From the sequence record NC_073081.1: a stretch of DNA of 44,887 nucleotides, one strand, 5' to 3'. Shown piece by piece: positions 14,487 to 40,110 of the stretch. Position 1 is the first letter of the stretch, and each line of letters begins with the position of its first letter. Made by a program: the position numbers and the translations under genes. The notes under the pieces were generated by a model. That model saw only the letters and a list, made by a program, of their open reading frames with translations. It was not told the origin of the DNA and did not search any database. The DNA is from Escherichia phage vB_EcoS_Sponge.

Positions 14487-14550
14487 GATGTTTTCCTTTT
14501 TAGTGGGAGGCGGTATTGCCTCCCGATGTGGTTAAGATACTGCAACCAAC

Positions 14551-15021
14551 CTATTGGTTGCGAGTGAATTTTGCAACGTTTATTGCGTAAATTTTCGGGA
14601 CTAAATCGCCGCACGCCCGACGAATTGCCGCGATGTTCTTCGGACAGTCTTCAATGATGACCAGTTCCGATACGTCCGCATAGCAGACCATTTTGAACAC
14701 AGCGCACGCCTTAAACTCTGGCGGCGGGGTGTCGTCCAGCATGTGGCGCATGAACAACCGGCCTCTAGGGAATACTTCCAATTGCTCGGCTGTGGTGCCC
14801 CGGCATTCTCGCTGCCGGTTGGTCAGGTACGCGATCTCGAAGCCTTGCTCTTTGTACATGGTCAGCAGCGGCAGCATATCCATGTTCAGATCTTCGCGTA
14901 CGTGCGCTCTGTGCCACTTCGCCCAAAAGGTGGATTTAGTTTTTATTCCCGGCACCAGGTCGGCGCGCGCATCGCTTGAACCGTTAATGACGCCATCCAA
15001 ATCACAAATCAGTAGTTTCAT
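14551..15021 (-). CDS. HAD-superfamily phosphatase (polynucleotide 3-prime-phosphatase / nucleotidase-like)
   Basis: N-terminal DxDGV motif (LICDLDGVI) characteristic of HAD hydrolases; GAGGA SD before ATG 15021. Confidence 0.6.
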   Translation of the reverse strand: MKLLICDLDGVINGSSDARADLVPGIKTKSTFWAKWHRAHVREDLNMDMLPLLTMYKEQGFEIAYLTNRQRECRGTTAEQLEVFPRGRLFMRHMLDDTPPPEFKACAVFKMVCYADVSELVIIEDCPKNIAAIRRACGDLVPKIYAINVAKFTRNQ

Positions 15022-16402: not shown

Positions 16403-16483
16403 TGTGTCGTCTCCGGGTATTAAAAAGGGCGTCCAAACCGGACACCCTCAATATAATGCAACCAATATGATTATGCAACCAAT

Positions 16484-22196: not shown

Positions 22197-22979
22197 TTAA
22201 CGGCGGCGACGTTTACGTGGTGCTTCGTCTTCGTCGTCGTCCTCATCTTCGTCATCGCGTGGCTTACGACGTTTACGAGGTTTCTCATCTTCATCTTCGT
22301 CGTCGTCATCGCGGCGCTTGGATTTTTTGGACTTGCGCGGCTTGTCGTCTTCGTCATCGTCATCACGACGTTTTGACTTTTTGGACTTGCGCGGGCTTTC
22401 ATCTTCGTCATCGTCGCCCAGGTCTTCGTCTGAGCAAGAAGACCCGCCACCGCCGAAGGCTTCGCCGTCATCGCGGAAGCGCAGACCCAAAAGACCAGCA
22501 CCGAGTCCCTTGCCGTTGGTATTGTTCCACGCCCAAATATCCAGGGACACATTGCAATAACAACCGGAGTAGATCTCCTGGCCTTCGATCTCGTCGCCTT
22601 CTACGGTCAGACCTTGTTCCGTCTGCTTCTCGCCGAGTGACGTTTGAATGATCGGCTGTTTGAACGATTTGGCGTTGATGTACAACATGCCTTCGAATTC
22701 TTCGGTTACTTCGTCGCGCTCGTCACCGTCGCGAACTGCGCATTCCTTAGAATCCTGGGCGTAGTGGCGGTCCATCCACTTATCAGCATTCTTCTCGGAT
22801 TTCAGCTTGTCGGTGAGCACTGCGCGCGCTGCCGCTTCCACTTTGTCCACCTGCGGATCTTCTTTATCAAGGAGAATCACTGCACGGTATGCCGGTTTTT
22901 GTCCATCCTGTTTAGGGGTATCACGTTCCCAAATTTTAAGGAAACATACGCGCACATTTTTCAGGTTGACTTTAGCCAT
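22197..22979 (-). CDS. DUF2815-like single-strand DNA-binding protein with charged low-complexity C-terminal tail
   Basis: N-terminus MAKVNLKNVRVCF typical of DUF2815; ATG 22979 with GAGGA SD; C-terminal DDDDED/PRKSKKSKRR repeats encoded by a tandem ~54-bp DNA repeat (about 22325-22420). Confidence 0.55.
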   Translation of the reverse strand: MAKVNLKNVRVCFLKIWERDTPKQDGQKPAYRAVILLDKEDPQVDKVEAAARAVLTDKLKSEKNADKWMDRHYAQDSKECAVRDGDERDEVTEEFEGMLYINAKSFKQPIIQTSLGEKQTEQGLTVEGDEIEGQEIYSGCYCNVSLDIWAWNNTNGKGLGAGLLGLRFRDDGEAFGGGGSSCSDEDLGDDDEDESPRKSKKSKRRDDDDEDDKPRKSKKSKRRDDDDEDEDEKPRKRRKPRDDEDEDDDEDEAPRKRRRR

Positions 22980-25188: not shown

Positions 25189-25215
25189 AAAAATAGGCCC
25201 GCAGATTAGCGGGCC
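25189..25215 (-). terminator. intra-operon hairpin terminator/attenuator
   Basis: Minus strand: ggcccgc-taatct-gcgggcc followed by UAUUUUU, then SD and ATG of next gene. Confidence 0.5.
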
Positions 25216-25223
25216 GGATAATA

Positions 25224-25349
25224 TTAATCTTCACCGCCGAGTTGTATATAAACCTCGTCCGGGTCGTCGCCTCTTTCTTCGCAGAAGGCGGTGAATGCCG
25301 CCCAATTTTCCGCTATGAAATCGAGCATGATTCTCATTTCATAGTCCAT
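25224..25349 (-). CDS. hypothetical small protein (41 aa)
   Basis: ATG 25349 to TAA 25224 (MDYEMRIMLDFIAENWAAFTAFCEERGDDPDEVYIQLGGED); not in the ORF track (under 60 aa). Confidence 0.25.
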   Translation of the reverse strand: MDYEMRIMLDFIAENWAAFTAFCEERGDDPDEVYIQLGGED

Positions 25350-25353
25350 GATA

Positions 25354-25866
25354 TTAATCTTCCAGTTCGAAATAAGTTTCGACGATTTCTTTTAGCTCTT
25401 TGTGGAAGTCTTCGACGTCGTCATCTTCCAGCTTAGCGATTGATTTGATCTCGAACGATTCCAGCAGGTCGTCGAATTCGTCGTTCGCATCGTCGTCGTC
25501 ACCACCGGCAATAATCGCGGCATACTGTTTGATCTCGTCGCGCATCTCTGCCAGCGGATCGGCATCTTTCTTGCCTTTGCCTTTTGCCGGTGCTTTTTTA
25601 GACTTAGCCGGTTTTTCGTCTTCGGCATCGTCGTCATCTTCTACGACTTCTTTTTTAGCCTTACCTTTCGCCGGTGCTTTTTTAGATTTAGCCGGTTTTT
25701 CGTCTTCAGCTTCATCGTCGTCATCTTCGACAACTTCTTTTTTGGCCTTAGACGGCTTCTTATCTTCCTGTTTACCAACGGCAGCGCCAACGGCTTCATA
25801 ATGCTTTGCAATGGTTTCCAGTGCTACTACTCCGCGAGTGATCAGGTTTACGATTTGCTCAAACAT
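25354..25866 (-). CDS. first leftward early gene: acidic/lysine-rich tandem-repeat protein
   Basis: ATG 25866 with GGAGAT SD; 29-aa unit KKEVVEDDDDEAEDEKPAKSKKAPAKGKA repeated twice (87-bp DNA repeat about 25571-25744); strongly acidic C-terminus. Confidence 0.55.
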   Translation of the reverse strand: MFEQIVNLITRGVVALETIAKHYEAVGAAVGKQEDKKPSKAKKEVVEDDDDEAEDEKPAKSKKAPAKGKAKKEVVEDDDDAEDEKPAKSKKAPAKGKGKKDADPLAEMRDEIKQYAAIIAGGDDDDANDEFDDLLESFEIKSIAKLEDDDVEDFHKELKEIVETYFELED

Positions 25867-26089
25867 GGTATATCTCCGATTGGTTAAGTTTAGGTGTCGG
25901 CAGTTAACTTCGTCGGTGGCCTTAACATATTGCCAGGTTACGCGTTCTCCCGTTCGGGTAGTGGACCTGGTTATATAATCACGGTTGGGAATCCTGACAC
26001 TTCGATCCGGCCCCTGCGTTGCCCCTCTCCAGTTTGCGTCCTGCATCCTGTCTCTCCAGTTTGCGATAGATTGGTTGTCGACGGAGTGA

Positions 26090-26119
26090 ATGATAGATTG
26101 GTTGCAGGATGGGTGTCAA
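26090..26119 (-). promoter_or_regulatory. putative sigma70-type leftward early promoter
   Basis: On minus strand: -35 TTGACA (26119-26114), 18-bp spacer, -10 TATCAT (26095-26090); GCAACCAAT motif copy lies in the spacer. Confidence 0.45.
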
Positions 26120-26130
26120 CAACTAATTTC

Positions 26131-26164
26131 AAAAAAAAGCGCCGAGGCAAAATGCAACGGCGCT
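26131..26164 (-). terminator. minus-strand intrinsic terminator with no upstream gene (possible end of a short RNA)
   Basis: Stem agcgccg/cggcgct (26138-44 / 26158-64) followed on minus strand by U8 (plus A-run 26131-38). Confidence 0.5.
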
Positions 26165-26234
26165 AACCAATAAGAGACAATGAGACGGGAATTATTATTA
26201 CACGCGTGCGCGCCCGTTTCAATATCCAAAGGAT

Positions 26235-26263
26235 TTGACACCTTGTGGTTTTAGGTGTAGTTT
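26235..26263 (+). promoter_or_regulatory. putative sigma70-type rightward early promoter
   Basis: -35 TTGACA at 26235-26240 (perfect consensus), 17-bp spacer, weak -10 TAGTTT at 26258-26263; 32 bp upstream of ATG 26295. Confidence 0.4.
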
Positions 26264-26294
26264 CATTGGTCATTAACCAACAGGAGACTGAATT

Positions 26295-26624
26295 ATGAAT
26301 ATCAAAGAAGCAATTGAAGTGTTATCTAATGCAATCCGCGGCGAAGCGGGTAAATCCTGGTATTACACAAATGCGGTGGATACTCTGTTATTTGAAGTGT
26401 CCAGATTATCGCGTGCTGAGAAGGAGCTTACCGCGAAGCTGGAATTGCTCAACGGCACGGCAGCAAGCAAGCTGCAAAAACACAATGAAGAAATGGAAGA
26501 ATACAAAAAACAGGTTATCCGTCTACGTGAGGAAGGTAAATCCTGGGCGATGATTGCCGAGTTGACCGGAATTAATCAGAGCACAGTGCGCTCCTGGGTA
26601 CGCAATAATAAAACTTCTAAGTAA
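26295..26624 (+). CDS. early helix-turn-helix DNA-binding protein
   Basis: 109-aa ORF, AGGAG SD; C-terminal HTH-like segment KSWAMIAELTGINQSTVRSWV; coiled-coil N-terminus. Confidence 0.5.
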   Translation: MNIKEAIEVLSNAIRGEAGKSWYYTNAVDTLLFEVSRLSRAEKELTAKLELLNGTAASKLQKHNEEMEEYKKQVIRLREEGKSWAMIAELTGINQSTVRSWVRNNKTSK

Positions 26625-28899: not shown

Positions 28900-29009
28900 A
28901 TTTTGCGCGCATTGGTTGCCGATATGTGGATTCCCATATCGCTAAAAGACTAAATTTTGCGCGCATTGGTTGCCATTTTGAGTGTTTTTATCCAGTCGCA
29001 TTGGTTGCC
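28897..29009. repeat. three direct repeats containing GCGCATTGGTTGCC (two as 24-bp units TAAATTTTGCGCGCATTGGTTGCC)
   Basis: Units at 28897-28920 and 28951-28974 plus shorter copy 28998-29009; palindrome gatatg-N8-catatc at 28921-28940. Confidence 0.8.
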
Positions 29010-29060
29010 GTGTAGTGTAAATATATTGAATAGTTATGCAGATTTCGTGCATAAACCAAA

Positions 29061-29161
29061 CGGGACAGAAAGCGGGACAAACACGAGGCGGGACAAAGCG
29101 GGACAGCACTCCAGTCCCGCCCCGGATGGCGCGGCTTCCGGAGGAGCGGGACAGCGGGACA
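29061..29161. repeat. iteron cluster B: 5 exact GCGGGACA octamers (29072, 29088, 29098, 29146, 29154) plus partial/inverted copies
   Basis: Read directly; preceded by a TGCATAAA box at 29048-29055; lies in a ~535-bp non-coding region after the primase-helicase gene. Confidence 0.8.
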
Positions 29162-29165
29162 GCAC

Positions 29166-29221
29166 CCCAGTCTTTCAGACTAGACGGGGGTCAATGGCCC
29201 CCCTCGTCTGAGACTGAATAA
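29166..29221. repeat. 56-bp conserved double-hairpin core, copy B (identical to 958-1013)
   Basis: Exact match of cccagtctttcagactagacgggggtcaatggcccccctcgtctgagactgaataa. Confidence 0.85.
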
Positions 29222-29433
29222 AATCCGGAGATTGCAAAATACACGGCAGCATGATGCGAAGTGCGGCCGACGACGAACTAGGCAACCAATGCAGGTTGTA
29301 TTATGCTGAGTGAAAAATGCGGTTTGCAGTCACAGCAGATAGCGATCAACTTTTTCATGCGCGTGATTAATATTGGTTGCACCCACCCAGGCACCCTGCT
29401 ATATTGGTTGCACACCAACATGAGGACAGAACA

Positions 29434-32518: not shown

Positions 32519-32582
32519 ATTGCTTGACTCGCAACCAACATAGACGCCATACTGCAACCAACCAATGAGAGGAGTAATCAAG

Positions 32583-39961: not shown

Positions 39962-40110
39962 TTTTGTGTCCTCGTTGTTGGTGTGCAACCAATATAGTGC
40001 AACCAATACGCGGATTGCAAGCGAATTTTGCGATTATTTTTATCGCTGATAATATTAGAAGCGTGAAGTCGAGCGGGTGGCCTGCTCTGCCACAATCCCA
40101 GGGGGATAGC

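What the first reader, a model, noticed from the sequence alone, without database searches (positions are those of the whole stretch)
25354..25866. First leftward early gene encodes an acidic/lysine-rich tandem-repeat protein (candidate DNA mimic or nucleic-acid chaperone)
It sits directly downstream of the predicted early promoter. The product has a 29-aa unit repeated twice (87-bp DNA repeat about 25571-25744) alternating Lys-rich and Asp/Glu-rich blocks, and an acidic C-terminus. First early genes of virulent phages often encode anti-restriction or host-takeover proteins, some of which are acidic DNA mimics.
Basis: inference. Interest (0 to 1): 0.5.

Follow-up and report, generated by a model that had tools for sequence, protein, structure and literature searches.

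The report
Variable-linker protein of phage replication operon
The repeat is real, but it is only a length-variable, charge-striped spacer between two conserved ends of an uncharacterised protein that hundreds of enterobacterial phages keep at the head of their DNA-replication genes, and nothing tested ties it to any known DNA mimic.

Summary
The window is a Dhillonvirus (E. coli siphophage). The gene at 25354-25866 (-) is real. It encodes 170 aa and is under strong purifying selection. It carries an 87/84-bp tandem repeat encoding two 29/28-aa units of alternating acidic and Lys-rich blocks.

The repeat is not the conserved part. Among relatives the linker carries 0, 1 or 2 units. The conserved parts are an N-terminal amphipathic helix and a very acidic C-terminal three-helix bundle.

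The family (phrog_3127 / VOG1545, the '13.88 kDa late protein') occurs in about 630 phage records. It always sits at the head of the operon DUF2800 nuclease, gp2.5-like SSB, PolA, SNF2, next to the primase-helicase. No member has a known function.

No sequence or fold match to Ocr, ArdA, Gam, gp5.9 or any PDB entry was found.

My best reading (about 0.4) is an anchor-tether-acidic-dock accessory of the replication/recombination module. It may work with the SSB, whose tail is also a charge-striped repeat. A DNA-mimic nuclease inhibitor remains possible (about 0.2).

In passing I found an ultra-conserved structured element in the 5' leader and a small-RNA candidate upstream. Interest is modest.

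The parts
25354..25866 (-). CDS of the 170-aa protein (stop codon 25354-25356). Member of phrog_3127 / VOG1545, the '13.88 kDa late protein' family.
   Evidence: phrog_3127, E 1.3e-53, full length; VOG1545; pN/pS 0.08-0.14.
25792..25866 (-). N-terminal amphipathic helix, aa 1-25 (MFEQIVNLITRGVVALETIAKHYEA). This is the most widely conserved module of the family. Proposed role: anchor or oligomerisation element.
   Evidence: AF2 predicts a helix at 2-25 with pLDDT 52-60, not confidently docked on the C domain. L8, R11, V13, A15, E17 and A20 are nearly invariant. Residues 1-25 of distant member P0109 match Jerseyvirus and Kagunavirus records at up to 92% identity.
25558..25791 (-). Disordered, net-neutral, charge-striped linker, aa 26-103. 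Its length varies between relatives.
   Evidence: pLDDT about 40. Charge blockiness z = 5.7 against shuffles, net charge per residue -0.01. Linker length among Dhillonvirus-type homologues is 27-91 aa and bimodal.
25654..25740 (-). Repeat unit 1 (aa 43-71, 29 aa).
25570..25653 (-). Repeat unit 2 (aa 72-99, 28 aa).
25357..25557 (-). C-terminal acidic three-helix bundle, aa 104-170 (25 D/E, 6 K/R). Proposed electrostatic docking module.
   Evidence: AF2 helices 104-121, 125-137 and 151-166 at pLDDT 80-93. Invariant core and acidic loop residues. The profile finds only 39 clusters at 50% identity among 1.84 billion proteins, and the domain is C-terminal in every full-length hit.
26090..26119 (-). 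Sigma-70-type promoter TTGACA-18-TATCAT that drives the leftward operon.
   Evidence: 11 of 12 matches. Conserved in 17 loci.
25867..26089 (-). 5' leader of the gene. It contains the ultra-conserved 165-nt element at 25888-26052 and a 27-nt insertion unique to this window (26053-26079).
25224..25349 (-). Closely spaced downstream ORF of 41 aa, acidic, phrog_15754. It is followed by an intrinsic-terminator-like hairpin at 25196-25215 (-).
22197..22979 (-). gp2.5/Enc34-like SSB of the same operon. Its C-terminal tail is also a charge-striped tandem repeat ending in a basic tip (PRKRRRR). Proposed partner of the acidic domain.
   Evidence: (22290-22415, period 54). The start at MAKVNLK is inferred from the SECphi18 SSB sequence.

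Best explanation
The gene encodes a conserved, lineage-specific accessory protein of the phage DNA replication/recombination module. It is built as anchor, tether and dock.

Shown:
- The gene is real and under strong purifying selection.
- The protein has three parts: a conserved N-terminal amphipathic helix, a disordered net-neutral linker striped with acidic and Lys/Arg-rich blocks, and a conserved, very acidic C-terminal three-helix bundle.
- The 84/87-bp tandem repeat is simply how this phage's linker reached two units. Relatives carry 0, 1 or 2 units and always stay in frame.
- In every locus examined across several genera the gene heads the operon DUF2800 (Cas4-like) exonuclease, gp2.5-like SSB, PolA, SNF2 helicase, next to the primase-helicase gene.

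Inferred:
- The N-helix anchors or oligomerises the protein.
- The flexible striped tether sets reach and provides weak multivalent electrostatic contacts.
- The acidic bundle docks onto a basic surface. The most attractive partner is the co-encoded SSB. Unusually for a gp2.5-type SSB, its tail is itself a striped acidic/basic repeat, and in all but one of the complete tails examined it ends in a basic tip.
- The protein would then help assemble or concentrate the replisome/recombination machinery on phage DNA.
For: Synteny: 10 of 10 distant loci keep the order primase-helicase | target, DUF2800 nuclease, SSB, PolA, SNF2. The target C domain is 50-61% identical in the eight most distant loci, against 42-67% for the enzymes in the same loci. 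The small neighbouring ORFs gave no match in those loci, though they may be too short to detect at E 1e-5. The position is the same in metagenomic relatives and in Jerseyvirus skrot and phage TO17.

Breadth: about 630 phage records match distant member P0109. That is close to the number of enterobacterial phage records carrying the DUF2800 nuclease.

Constraint: pN/pS is 0.14 for the N helix and 0.08 for the C domain over 23 distinct CDS.

Architecture: AF2 models, alignments, and the profile search in which the domain is C-terminal in small proteins, a few of which carry 2-3 matched stretches.

Linker: blocky and close to net neutral in most of 30 family members, with z of 3-6, although the linker sequence itself is not conserved. 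Length is bimodal, 45-62 and 71-91 aa, with rare cases of 27-36.

SSB tail: also a striped acidic/basic tail in all relatives examined, and also variable in length.

A sigma-70-like site precedes the homologue in two distant relatives.
Against: There is no direct evidence for any partner or activity. No multimer prediction or experiment was possible.

The N helix is modelled with low confidence (pLDDT 52-60).

The DUF2800-SSB-PolA module also exists in many phages (Streptococcus, Paenibacillus, Achromobacter, Rhodobacter and others) in which this family is not detectable by sequence. The protein is therefore not a universal replisome part. Positional look-alikes in LuckyBarnes and nyaak_TL1 could not be shown to be homologous (hhalign probability 0.4%).

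Linker length and SSB tail length are not significantly correlated (rho 0.48, p 0.07, not corrected for phylogeny).

No escape mutations mapped to this gene in the one defence-escape data set checked. That says nothing either way.
Confidence: 0.4

Rival explanations
1. DNA-mimic inhibitor of a host nuclease. The acidic C-terminal bundle, possibly oligomerised through the N helix, would occupy the DNA-binding site of RecBCD, or less likely of a type I R-M enzyme. That would protect the injected and replicating linear DNA.
For: The C domain has 25 acidic and 6 basic residues in 67 aa. The gene is the first one behind a strong host-type promoter. It lies upstream of the phage exonuclease, as lambda gam precedes bet and exo and as T7 gene 5.9 precedes gene 6 (established knowledge of those phages, used only as an analogy). 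OLD, which is triggered by RecBCD inhibitors, robustly defends against Dhillonvirus, so these phages may carry an unidentified RecBCD inhibitor.
Against: No sequence or fold similarity to Ocr, ArdA, Gam, gp5.9, Abc2 or any solved structure was found. Known mimics lack Lys-rich tracts, whereas here the basic blocks are a conserved family trait. The gene behaves as a core replication-module gene, not a variable anti-defence cassette. The BASEL papers describe Dhillonvirus phages as less resistant to type I and II R-M than Queuovirinae and as moderately sensitive to the tested RM systems. Other small acidic ORFs, such as the 41-aa ORF at 25224-25349, are equally good candidates for a RecBCD inhibitor.
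Confidence: 0.2
2. Non-specific nucleic-acid binder or chaperone. The Lys/Ala/Pro-rich blocks (KPAKSKKAPAKGK, and RGRP/TRGK-type motifs in relatives) would bind DNA or RNA as histone H1, AlgP or mycobacterial HupB tails do. The acidic blocks would modulate that binding.
For: The basic blocks resemble H1-like KAPK repeats. Some relatives carry KRGRPAK, an AT-hook-like core. Basic blocks are present throughout the family.
Against: The linker is net neutral and the whole protein is strongly acidic (-21), which disfavours stable nucleic-acid binding. The basic repeat can be almost absent in natural variants such as P0098 and P0083. The conserved modules are the helix and the acidic bundle. There is no match to any nucleic-acid-binding family.
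Confidence: 0.1
3. Host-takeover factor that targets host transcription or another host hub. An early, abundant acidic protein would bind RNA polymerase, H-NS or a similar host protein, as T7 gp2, T7 gp5.5 or T4 AsiA do.
For: Promoter-proximal position. An intrinsic-terminator-like hairpin after the next small ORF would make a short, highly expressed unit. The N helix is extremely conserved across phages of different enterobacterial hosts, which would fit a conserved host target.
Against: Strict linkage to the replication operon. Structural matches to T4 gp33 and RNAP-bound chains are far from significant (E > 1). The terminator is not seen after the homologue in two distant relatives.
Confidence: 0.08

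Closest known systems
phrog_3127 / pVOG VOG1545, annotated '13.88 kDa late protein' (name inherited from Salmonella phage MB78, UniProt Q9T1Z8) or 'hypothetical protein'
   Same: Full-length HMM match (E 1.3e-53). Same three-part architecture. Same position before the DUF2800 nuclease in Dhillonvirus, Jerseyvirus, Kagunavirus and relatives.
   Different: Nothing differs: this protein is a member. The family has no characterised function, and no paper in the searchable library addresses it.
Phage DNA-mimic nuclease inhibitors (T7 Ocr, ArdA, lambda Gam, T7 gp5.9)
   Same: Strongly acidic folded domain, early expression inferred, and a gene position upstream of the phage exonuclease as for gam and 5.9.
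   Different: No sequence or fold relation was found. The protein carries conserved Lys/Arg-rich tracts and a long disordered tether that mimics lack. It is a core gene co-inherited with replication genes. Dhillonvirus phages are not notably restriction-resistant.
Acidic C-terminal tails of phage replisome proteins (T7 gp2.5 and gp4, T4 gp32)
   Same: An acidic module on a flexible tether, in a replication operon, plausibly used for electrostatic docking between replisome parts.
   Different: Here the acidic module is a separate folded three-helix domain on its own polypeptide. The SSB tail of this lineage usually ends basic rather than acidic. No interaction has been demonstrated.
Nucleophosmin (NPM1)-type multivalent scaffolds: oligomerisation module, IDR with alternating acidic and basic tracts, then a C-terminal three-helix bundle
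   Same: The same order of modules and the same charge-striped IDR. The only PDB sequence hit of that kind is nucleoplasmin, and it is non-significant and driven by composition.
   Different: Analogy only, with no homology. The N module here is a single helix whose oligomeric state is unknown. The C bundle is acidic rather than nucleic-acid binding. No evidence for condensates exists.

Membership tests
phrog_3127 / VOG1545 ('13.88 kDa late protein' family) | Significant full-length profile match | tested here: met
   phrog_3127, E 1.3e-53, residues 1-170 on profile positions 1-178 of 178. The welsh orthologue is annotated VOG1545, as is skrot gp61.
phrog_3127 / VOG1545 ('13.88 kDa late protein' family) | N-helix, charged linker, C-terminal helical domain; gene at the head of the nuclease-SSB-PolA operon | tested here: met
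Ocr / ArdA anti-restriction DNA mimics | Sequence membership (Pfam Ocr and ArdA models) | tested here: not met
   Pfam scan at E <= 0.1 returns only BUD22 and DUF6669 at E about 0.05. Across 31 family members no recurrent family appears.
Ocr / ArdA anti-restriction DNA mimics | Fold resembling a solved DNA mimic | tested here: not met
Ocr / ArdA anti-restriction DNA mimics | Protection of unmodified phage or DNA from type I R-M | not testable with these tools
   Indirect only. The BASEL papers describe Dhillonvirus as less resistant to type I and II R-M than Queuovirinae and as moderately sensitive.
RecBCD inhibitors (lambda Gam, T7 gp5.9, P22 Abc2) | Sequence or fold similarity to a known inhibitor | tested here: not met
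RecBCD inhibitors (lambda Gam, T7 gp5.9, P22 Abc2) | Binding to and inhibition of RecBCD; activation of OLD or retron Ec48 | not testable with these tools
   Only circumstantial: OLD defends against Dhillonvirus.
Histone H1 / AlgP / HupB-type Lys-Ala-Pro repeat DNA binders | Net-basic KAP-rich repeat region that is conserved | tested here: not met
   Linker net charge per residue is -0.01. Repeat copy number is 0-2 among close relatives. The whole protein has pI 4.5.
Rho_N / SAP / HeH helix-extended-helix domains (a lead from memory for the C domain) | Profile similarity to the E. coli Rho N-terminal HeH motif | tested here: not met
   hhalign probability 0.1%. No Rho_N, SAP or HeH hit in Pfam for any of 31 members.
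Dhillonvirus anti-Tmn (ORF35) and Ksap1 | Identity with the published proteins | tested here: not met
   Anti-Tmn has a C-terminal beta-sheet and is present in only some Dhillonviruses (PMC11846954). Ksap1 is a 74-aa protein between methyltransferase and phosphatase genes.

The most novel reading that the evidence does not exclude
The protein is a multivalent electrostatic scaffold with an NPM1-like layout. Its N helix would oligomerise. Its striped tether and acidic bundle would co-condense with the equally striped, basic-tipped tail of the phage SSB on single-stranded DNA. The result would be a membrane-less replication/recombination compartment in a small siphovirus. Repeat copy number in both proteins would tune the material properties of that compartment.
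Probability: 0.1. Interest if true: 0.7.

Novelty: new variant of a known kind. Interest (0 to 1): 0.35.

Why it matters
About 600 sequenced enterobacterial siphoviruses, including Dhillonvirus, Jerseyvirus and Kagunavirus phages widely used in therapy and in defence-system research, keep this gene at the head of their replication operon. No function is known for it.

If it is a replisome or recombination adaptor, it would be a missing component of a very common T7-like replication module (Cas4-like nuclease, gp2.5-like SSB, PolA). It would also explain why the SSB of this lineage has an inverted, basic-tipped tail.

If instead it is a nuclease-blocking mimic, it would be a new inhibitor family and a candidate trigger for RecBCD-guarding defences such as OLD.

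Either way, the practical lesson is that the eye-catching repeat is a polymorphic spacer. The parts to test are the helix and the acidic bundle.

Tried and rejected
- Pfam, NCBIfam and PADLOC scans of the protein, and Pfam on 31 family members, gave nothing significant or recurrent.
- PDB sequence searches with the single sequence and with the C-domain profile gave a best E of 0.25-0.9.
- BFVD returned only uncharacterised phage proteins.
- The idea that the C domain is a Rho_N/SAP-like HeH motif was rejected by hhalign.
- An EF-hand-like reading of the GDxDD loops does not fit the EF-hand register. This was by inspection only.
- Homology to positional look-alikes in Brevibacterium phage LuckyBarnes and Achromobacter phage nyaak_TL1 was not established.
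- Identity with the published Dhillonvirus proteins anti-Tmn and Ksap1 was rejected.
- No escape mutation in this gene appears in the Stokar-Avihail supplement.
- Literature searches for phrog_3127, '13.88 kDa late protein' and MB78 found no functional study. One broad search was uninformative.
- The 13/14-nt 'iterons' seen in the leader are not iterons. They are one 27-nt insertion private to this window.
- The 230-aa long ORF was rejected as the real product.
- The correlation between linker length and SSB tail length was not significant.
- The search for related loci with the full-family alignment failed for lack of conserved stretches.

Full report
WHAT THE WINDOW IS. The 1.8 kb around the finding matches 173 phage records at 80-99% identity. 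Nearly all are Escherichia or Shigella phages of the genus Dhillonvirus, which are virulent siphoviruses of 43-46 kb. In those records the gene is always 'hypothetical protein'. Phage welsh even annotates a repeat_region inside it and assigns it to pVOG VOG1545.

THE OBSERVATION. The mechanical ORF is 25354..26046 (-), 230 aa. The conserved start is ATG 25866 (MFEQIVN..., GGAG upstream). Every distant homologue begins at the equivalent Met. The in-frame upstream extension is destroyed by a 1-nt deletion in L007 and a 2-nt insertion in L009 and L017. The product is therefore 170 aa.

Tandem Repeats Finder reports 25565-25750, period 84, 2.2 copies, 87% matches, score 273. At protein level the two units are aa 43-71 and 72-99, KEVVEDDDD(E)AEDEKPAKSKKAPAKGK[A/G]K. 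The protein has 51 D+E and 30 K+R, with pI 4.5. The last 67 residues hold 25 acidic and 6 basic residues. Local charge segregation in the linker exceeds all 500 shuffles (z 5.7).

A near-consensus promoter, TTGACA-18-TATCAT, sits at 26119..26090 (-) and is conserved in 17 loci. The gene is the first ORF behind it, after a leader of about 225 nt.

ANATOMY. Alignments of close and distant homologues and two AlphaFold2 models show three parts.
- An N-terminal amphipathic helix, aa 1-25, with pLDDT 52-60. It is not confidently packed on the rest of the protein.
- A disordered linker, aa 26-103, with pLDDT about 40.
- A C-terminal three-helix bundle, aa 104-170, with pLDDT 80-93. Its hydrophobic core is invariant and its loops are acidic (GGDDDDANDEFDDLL, KLEDDDVEDF).

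The repeat lies wholly in the linker. Among 97 Dhillonvirus-type cluster representatives the linker is 27-91 aa long. The distribution is bimodal, 45-62 and 71-91 aa, with rare cases of 27-36 aa. This corresponds to one, two or no units, and the frame is always kept (examples P0098, P0083, P0075, P0032). The repeat is therefore a copy-number polymorphism of a spacer.

What is conserved family-wide is the character of the linker. It is close to net neutral, yet its charges are segregated into blocks. In most of 30 diverse members the z score is 3-6 against shuffles, although the sequences themselves cannot be aligned.

The two end modules are under strong purifying selection. pN/pS is 0.14 for the helix and 0.08 for the bundle over 23 distinct coding sequences.

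FAMILY AND CONTEXT. The protein is a full-length member of phrog_3127, function unknown (E 1.3e-53). It matches nothing significant in Pfam, NCBIfam or PADLOC.

A profile of the C domain, searched against 1.84 billion representative proteins, finds only 39 clusters. Nearly all are small proteins, at most 212 aa, with the domain at the C-terminus. A few show two or three matched stretches, and no fusion to a long protein was seen.

tblastn with the distant member P0109 hits 630 phage records, including Salmonella Jerseyvirus, Kagunavirus, Dhillonvirus and Edwardsiella, Klebsiella and Serratia phages. There the product is often called '13.88 kDa late protein', a name inherited from Salmonella phage MB78. 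The N helix alone matches at up to 92% identity.

In all 10 distant loci examined the order is primase-helicase (divergent) | target, DUF2800 nuclease, gp2.5/Enc34-like SSB, PolA, SNF2 helicase. Jerseyvirus skrot and phage TO17 show the same arrangement.

The target diverges at the same rate as the enzymes. In the eight most distant loci the C domain is 50-61% identical, against 42-67% for the replication proteins. The small ORFs next to it gave no match there.

The nuclease occurs in 1032 phage records. About 600 are enterobacterial, roughly the same set that has the target. The Gram-positive and other members of the module lack a detectable homologue. Proteins with a similar layout sit at the same place in Brevibacterium phage LuckyBarnes and Achromobacter phage nyaak_TL1, but homology could not be shown.

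IS IT A DNA MIMIC? By sequence and by fold it belongs to no known mimic or chaperone family. The charge density of the C domain is mimic-like. The family-wide Lys/Arg-rich blocks, the long tether and the core-gene behaviour are not.

The BASEL studies describe Dhillonvirus phages as less resistant to type I and II R-M than Queuovirinae and as moderately sensitive to the tested RM systems. All of these phages carry this gene (for example P0054 of TheodorHerzl). That argues against an Ocr-like role.

It is not the published Dhillonvirus anti-Tmn protein or Ksap1. It was not hit in the escape-mutant supplement I could search.

One lead keeps a nuclease-inhibitor reading alive. OLD is activated by the RecBCD inhibitors Gam and gp5.9, and it robustly protects against Dhillonvirus. 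In addition, gam in lambda and gene 5.9 in T7 lie just upstream of the phage exonuclease, as this gene does. That last point is established knowledge of those phages and is used here only as an analogy.

MOST LIKELY MECHANISM. I commit, at about 0.4, to an anchor-tether-dock accessory of the replication/recombination module.

A supporting oddity is the SSB of the same operon. Its C-terminal tail is also a tandem-repeated stripe of acidic and basic blocks...DDDEDESPRKSKKSKRRDDDDEDDKPRKSKKSKRR...EAPRKRRRR. That is unlike the purely acidic tail of T7 gp2.5. The striped tail is conserved in distant relatives and in Jerseyvirus, and in most of them it ends in a basic tip. Its length also varies between Dhillonviruses.

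An acidic folded domain on a flexible tether is a natural dock for such a tail. This step is inference only. Linker and tail lengths do not correlate significantly.

The rivals are a RecBCD or R-M-blocking mimic (0.2), a nucleic-acid binder or chaperone acting through the Lys-rich blocks (0.1), and a host-takeover factor (0.08).

NOVELTY AND INTEREST. The sequence family is already catalogued and is present in hundreds of GenBank records as a hypothetical protein. Its architecture, its strict linkage to the replication operon and the polymorphic nature of the repeat appear not to have been described in the literature I could search.

It is a moderately interesting conserved unknown, not a striking anomaly. 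I score interest at 0.35. The most novel reading not excluded is an NPM1-like electrostatic scaffold that co-condenses with the SSB (probability about 0.1).

SIDE OBSERVATIONS.

Leader element. The 5' leader contains a 165-nt element (25888-26052, -). It is 98% identical over its first 140 nt between this window and L004, a relative whose flanking genes are only 68-74% identical at the nucleotide level. It is replaced by unrelated short sequence in four Dhillonvirus loci. It has one clearly compensatory pair, 25968/25935: A-U in 12 sequences, U-A in 3 and C-G in 2. Another pair alternates G-C and G-U on the sense strand. It has no Rfam match, and the whole-window tRNA scan found none. It occurs only in Dhillonvirus-sized contigs. 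A single-sequence fold of the 223-nt leader (25867-26089) that contains it is not unusually stable (z +1.3).

Small-RNA candidate. Upstream, a conserved promoter-like site (26222..26194) followed by a strong terminator hairpin would give a small RNA of about 57 nt (z -3.2). Its single-stranded 5' part is complementary to the Shine-Dalgarno regions of both divergent first genes. The 14-mer has 3 matches in the window against 0.07 expected.

Motif. The motif AACCAAY is enriched 2.5-fold in the window, and many copies form tight groups, including a run of five in the intergenic region next to this gene. These sites may therefore be operators for a DNA-binding protein rather than RNA pairing sites.

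Noticed in passing
window 25888-26052 (-), in the 5' leader of the gene: A 165-nt element that is almost invariant in 17 distinct copies. It is 98% identical over 140 nt to the copy in L004, whose flanking genes are only 68-74% identical. It is absent as a block from L014, L015, L016 and L019. One compensatory pair (25968/25935: A-U x12, U-A x3, C-G x2) and one G-C/G-U pair sit in a multi-stem RNAalifold consensus. It has no Rfam hit, and the whole-window tRNA scan found none. It occurs only in Dhillonvirus-size contigs. It is a candidate structured leader RNA or mobile cassette.
   Followed up: partly
window 26131-26222 (-): A promoter-like site, TTGAAA-17-AATAAT with a TG extension, followed by a strong intrinsic terminator. 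This predicts a small RNA of about 57 nt, conserved in all 17 loci. Its unpaired 5' segment, UCUCUUAUUGGUUA (26177-26164), is complementary to the Shine-Dalgarno regions of both divergent first genes (25873-25886 and 26274-26287). The 14-mer occurs 3 times in the window against 0.07 expected.
   Followed up: partly
whole window; groups at 25879-26281, 28911-29409, 14544-14559, 16460-16483, 32533-32566, 39987-40007: The heptamer AACCAAY occurs 27 times against 10.6 +/- 3.4 expected, and many copies fall in tight groups, including five in the intergenic region next to this gene. It is a candidate operator or promoter element, perhaps for the sigma-70-region-4-like HTH protein at 26295-26624.
   Followed up: no
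window 22197-22979 (-), tandem repeat at 22290-22415: The gp2.5/Enc34-like SSB has a C-terminal tail of alternating acidic and basic blocks built from a 54-bp tandem repeat, and it ends PRKRRRR. A striped, usually basic-tipped tail is conserved in distant relatives and in Jerseyvirus. Tail length varies from 23 to 82 aa among Dhillonviruses.
   Followed up: partly
window 26053-26079: A 27-nt insertion found only in this window. It duplicates CAACCAATCTATC and GCAAACTGGAGAG, producing the apparent 13- and 14-nt direct repeats. It also places a GGAG in front of ATG 26046, the start of the non-conserved 230-aa long ORF.
   Followed up: partly
window 25224-25349 (-) and 25196-25215 (-): A 41-aa acidic ORF (phrog_15754) starts 4 nt after the target's stop codon. 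It is followed by a GC-rich intrinsic-terminator-like hairpin. The two genes may form a short, highly expressed unit. The small ORF is itself a candidate gp5.9-like inhibitor.
   Followed up: no
window 26295-26624 (+): This 109-aa protein has a C-terminal HTH (HTH_23 and Sigma70_r4_2). Public records annotate it inconsistently as 'transposase' or 'DNA recombination nuclease inhibitor gamma'. The Gam label has no support in the Pfam and PHROG scans.
   Followed up: no
P0123, P0124, P0131 (metagenomic family members): Some family members (208-212 aa) show two or three matched stretches of the C-terminal domain after the same N helix and linker. Multivalency of the acidic module can therefore be increased within one chain.
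   Followed up: no
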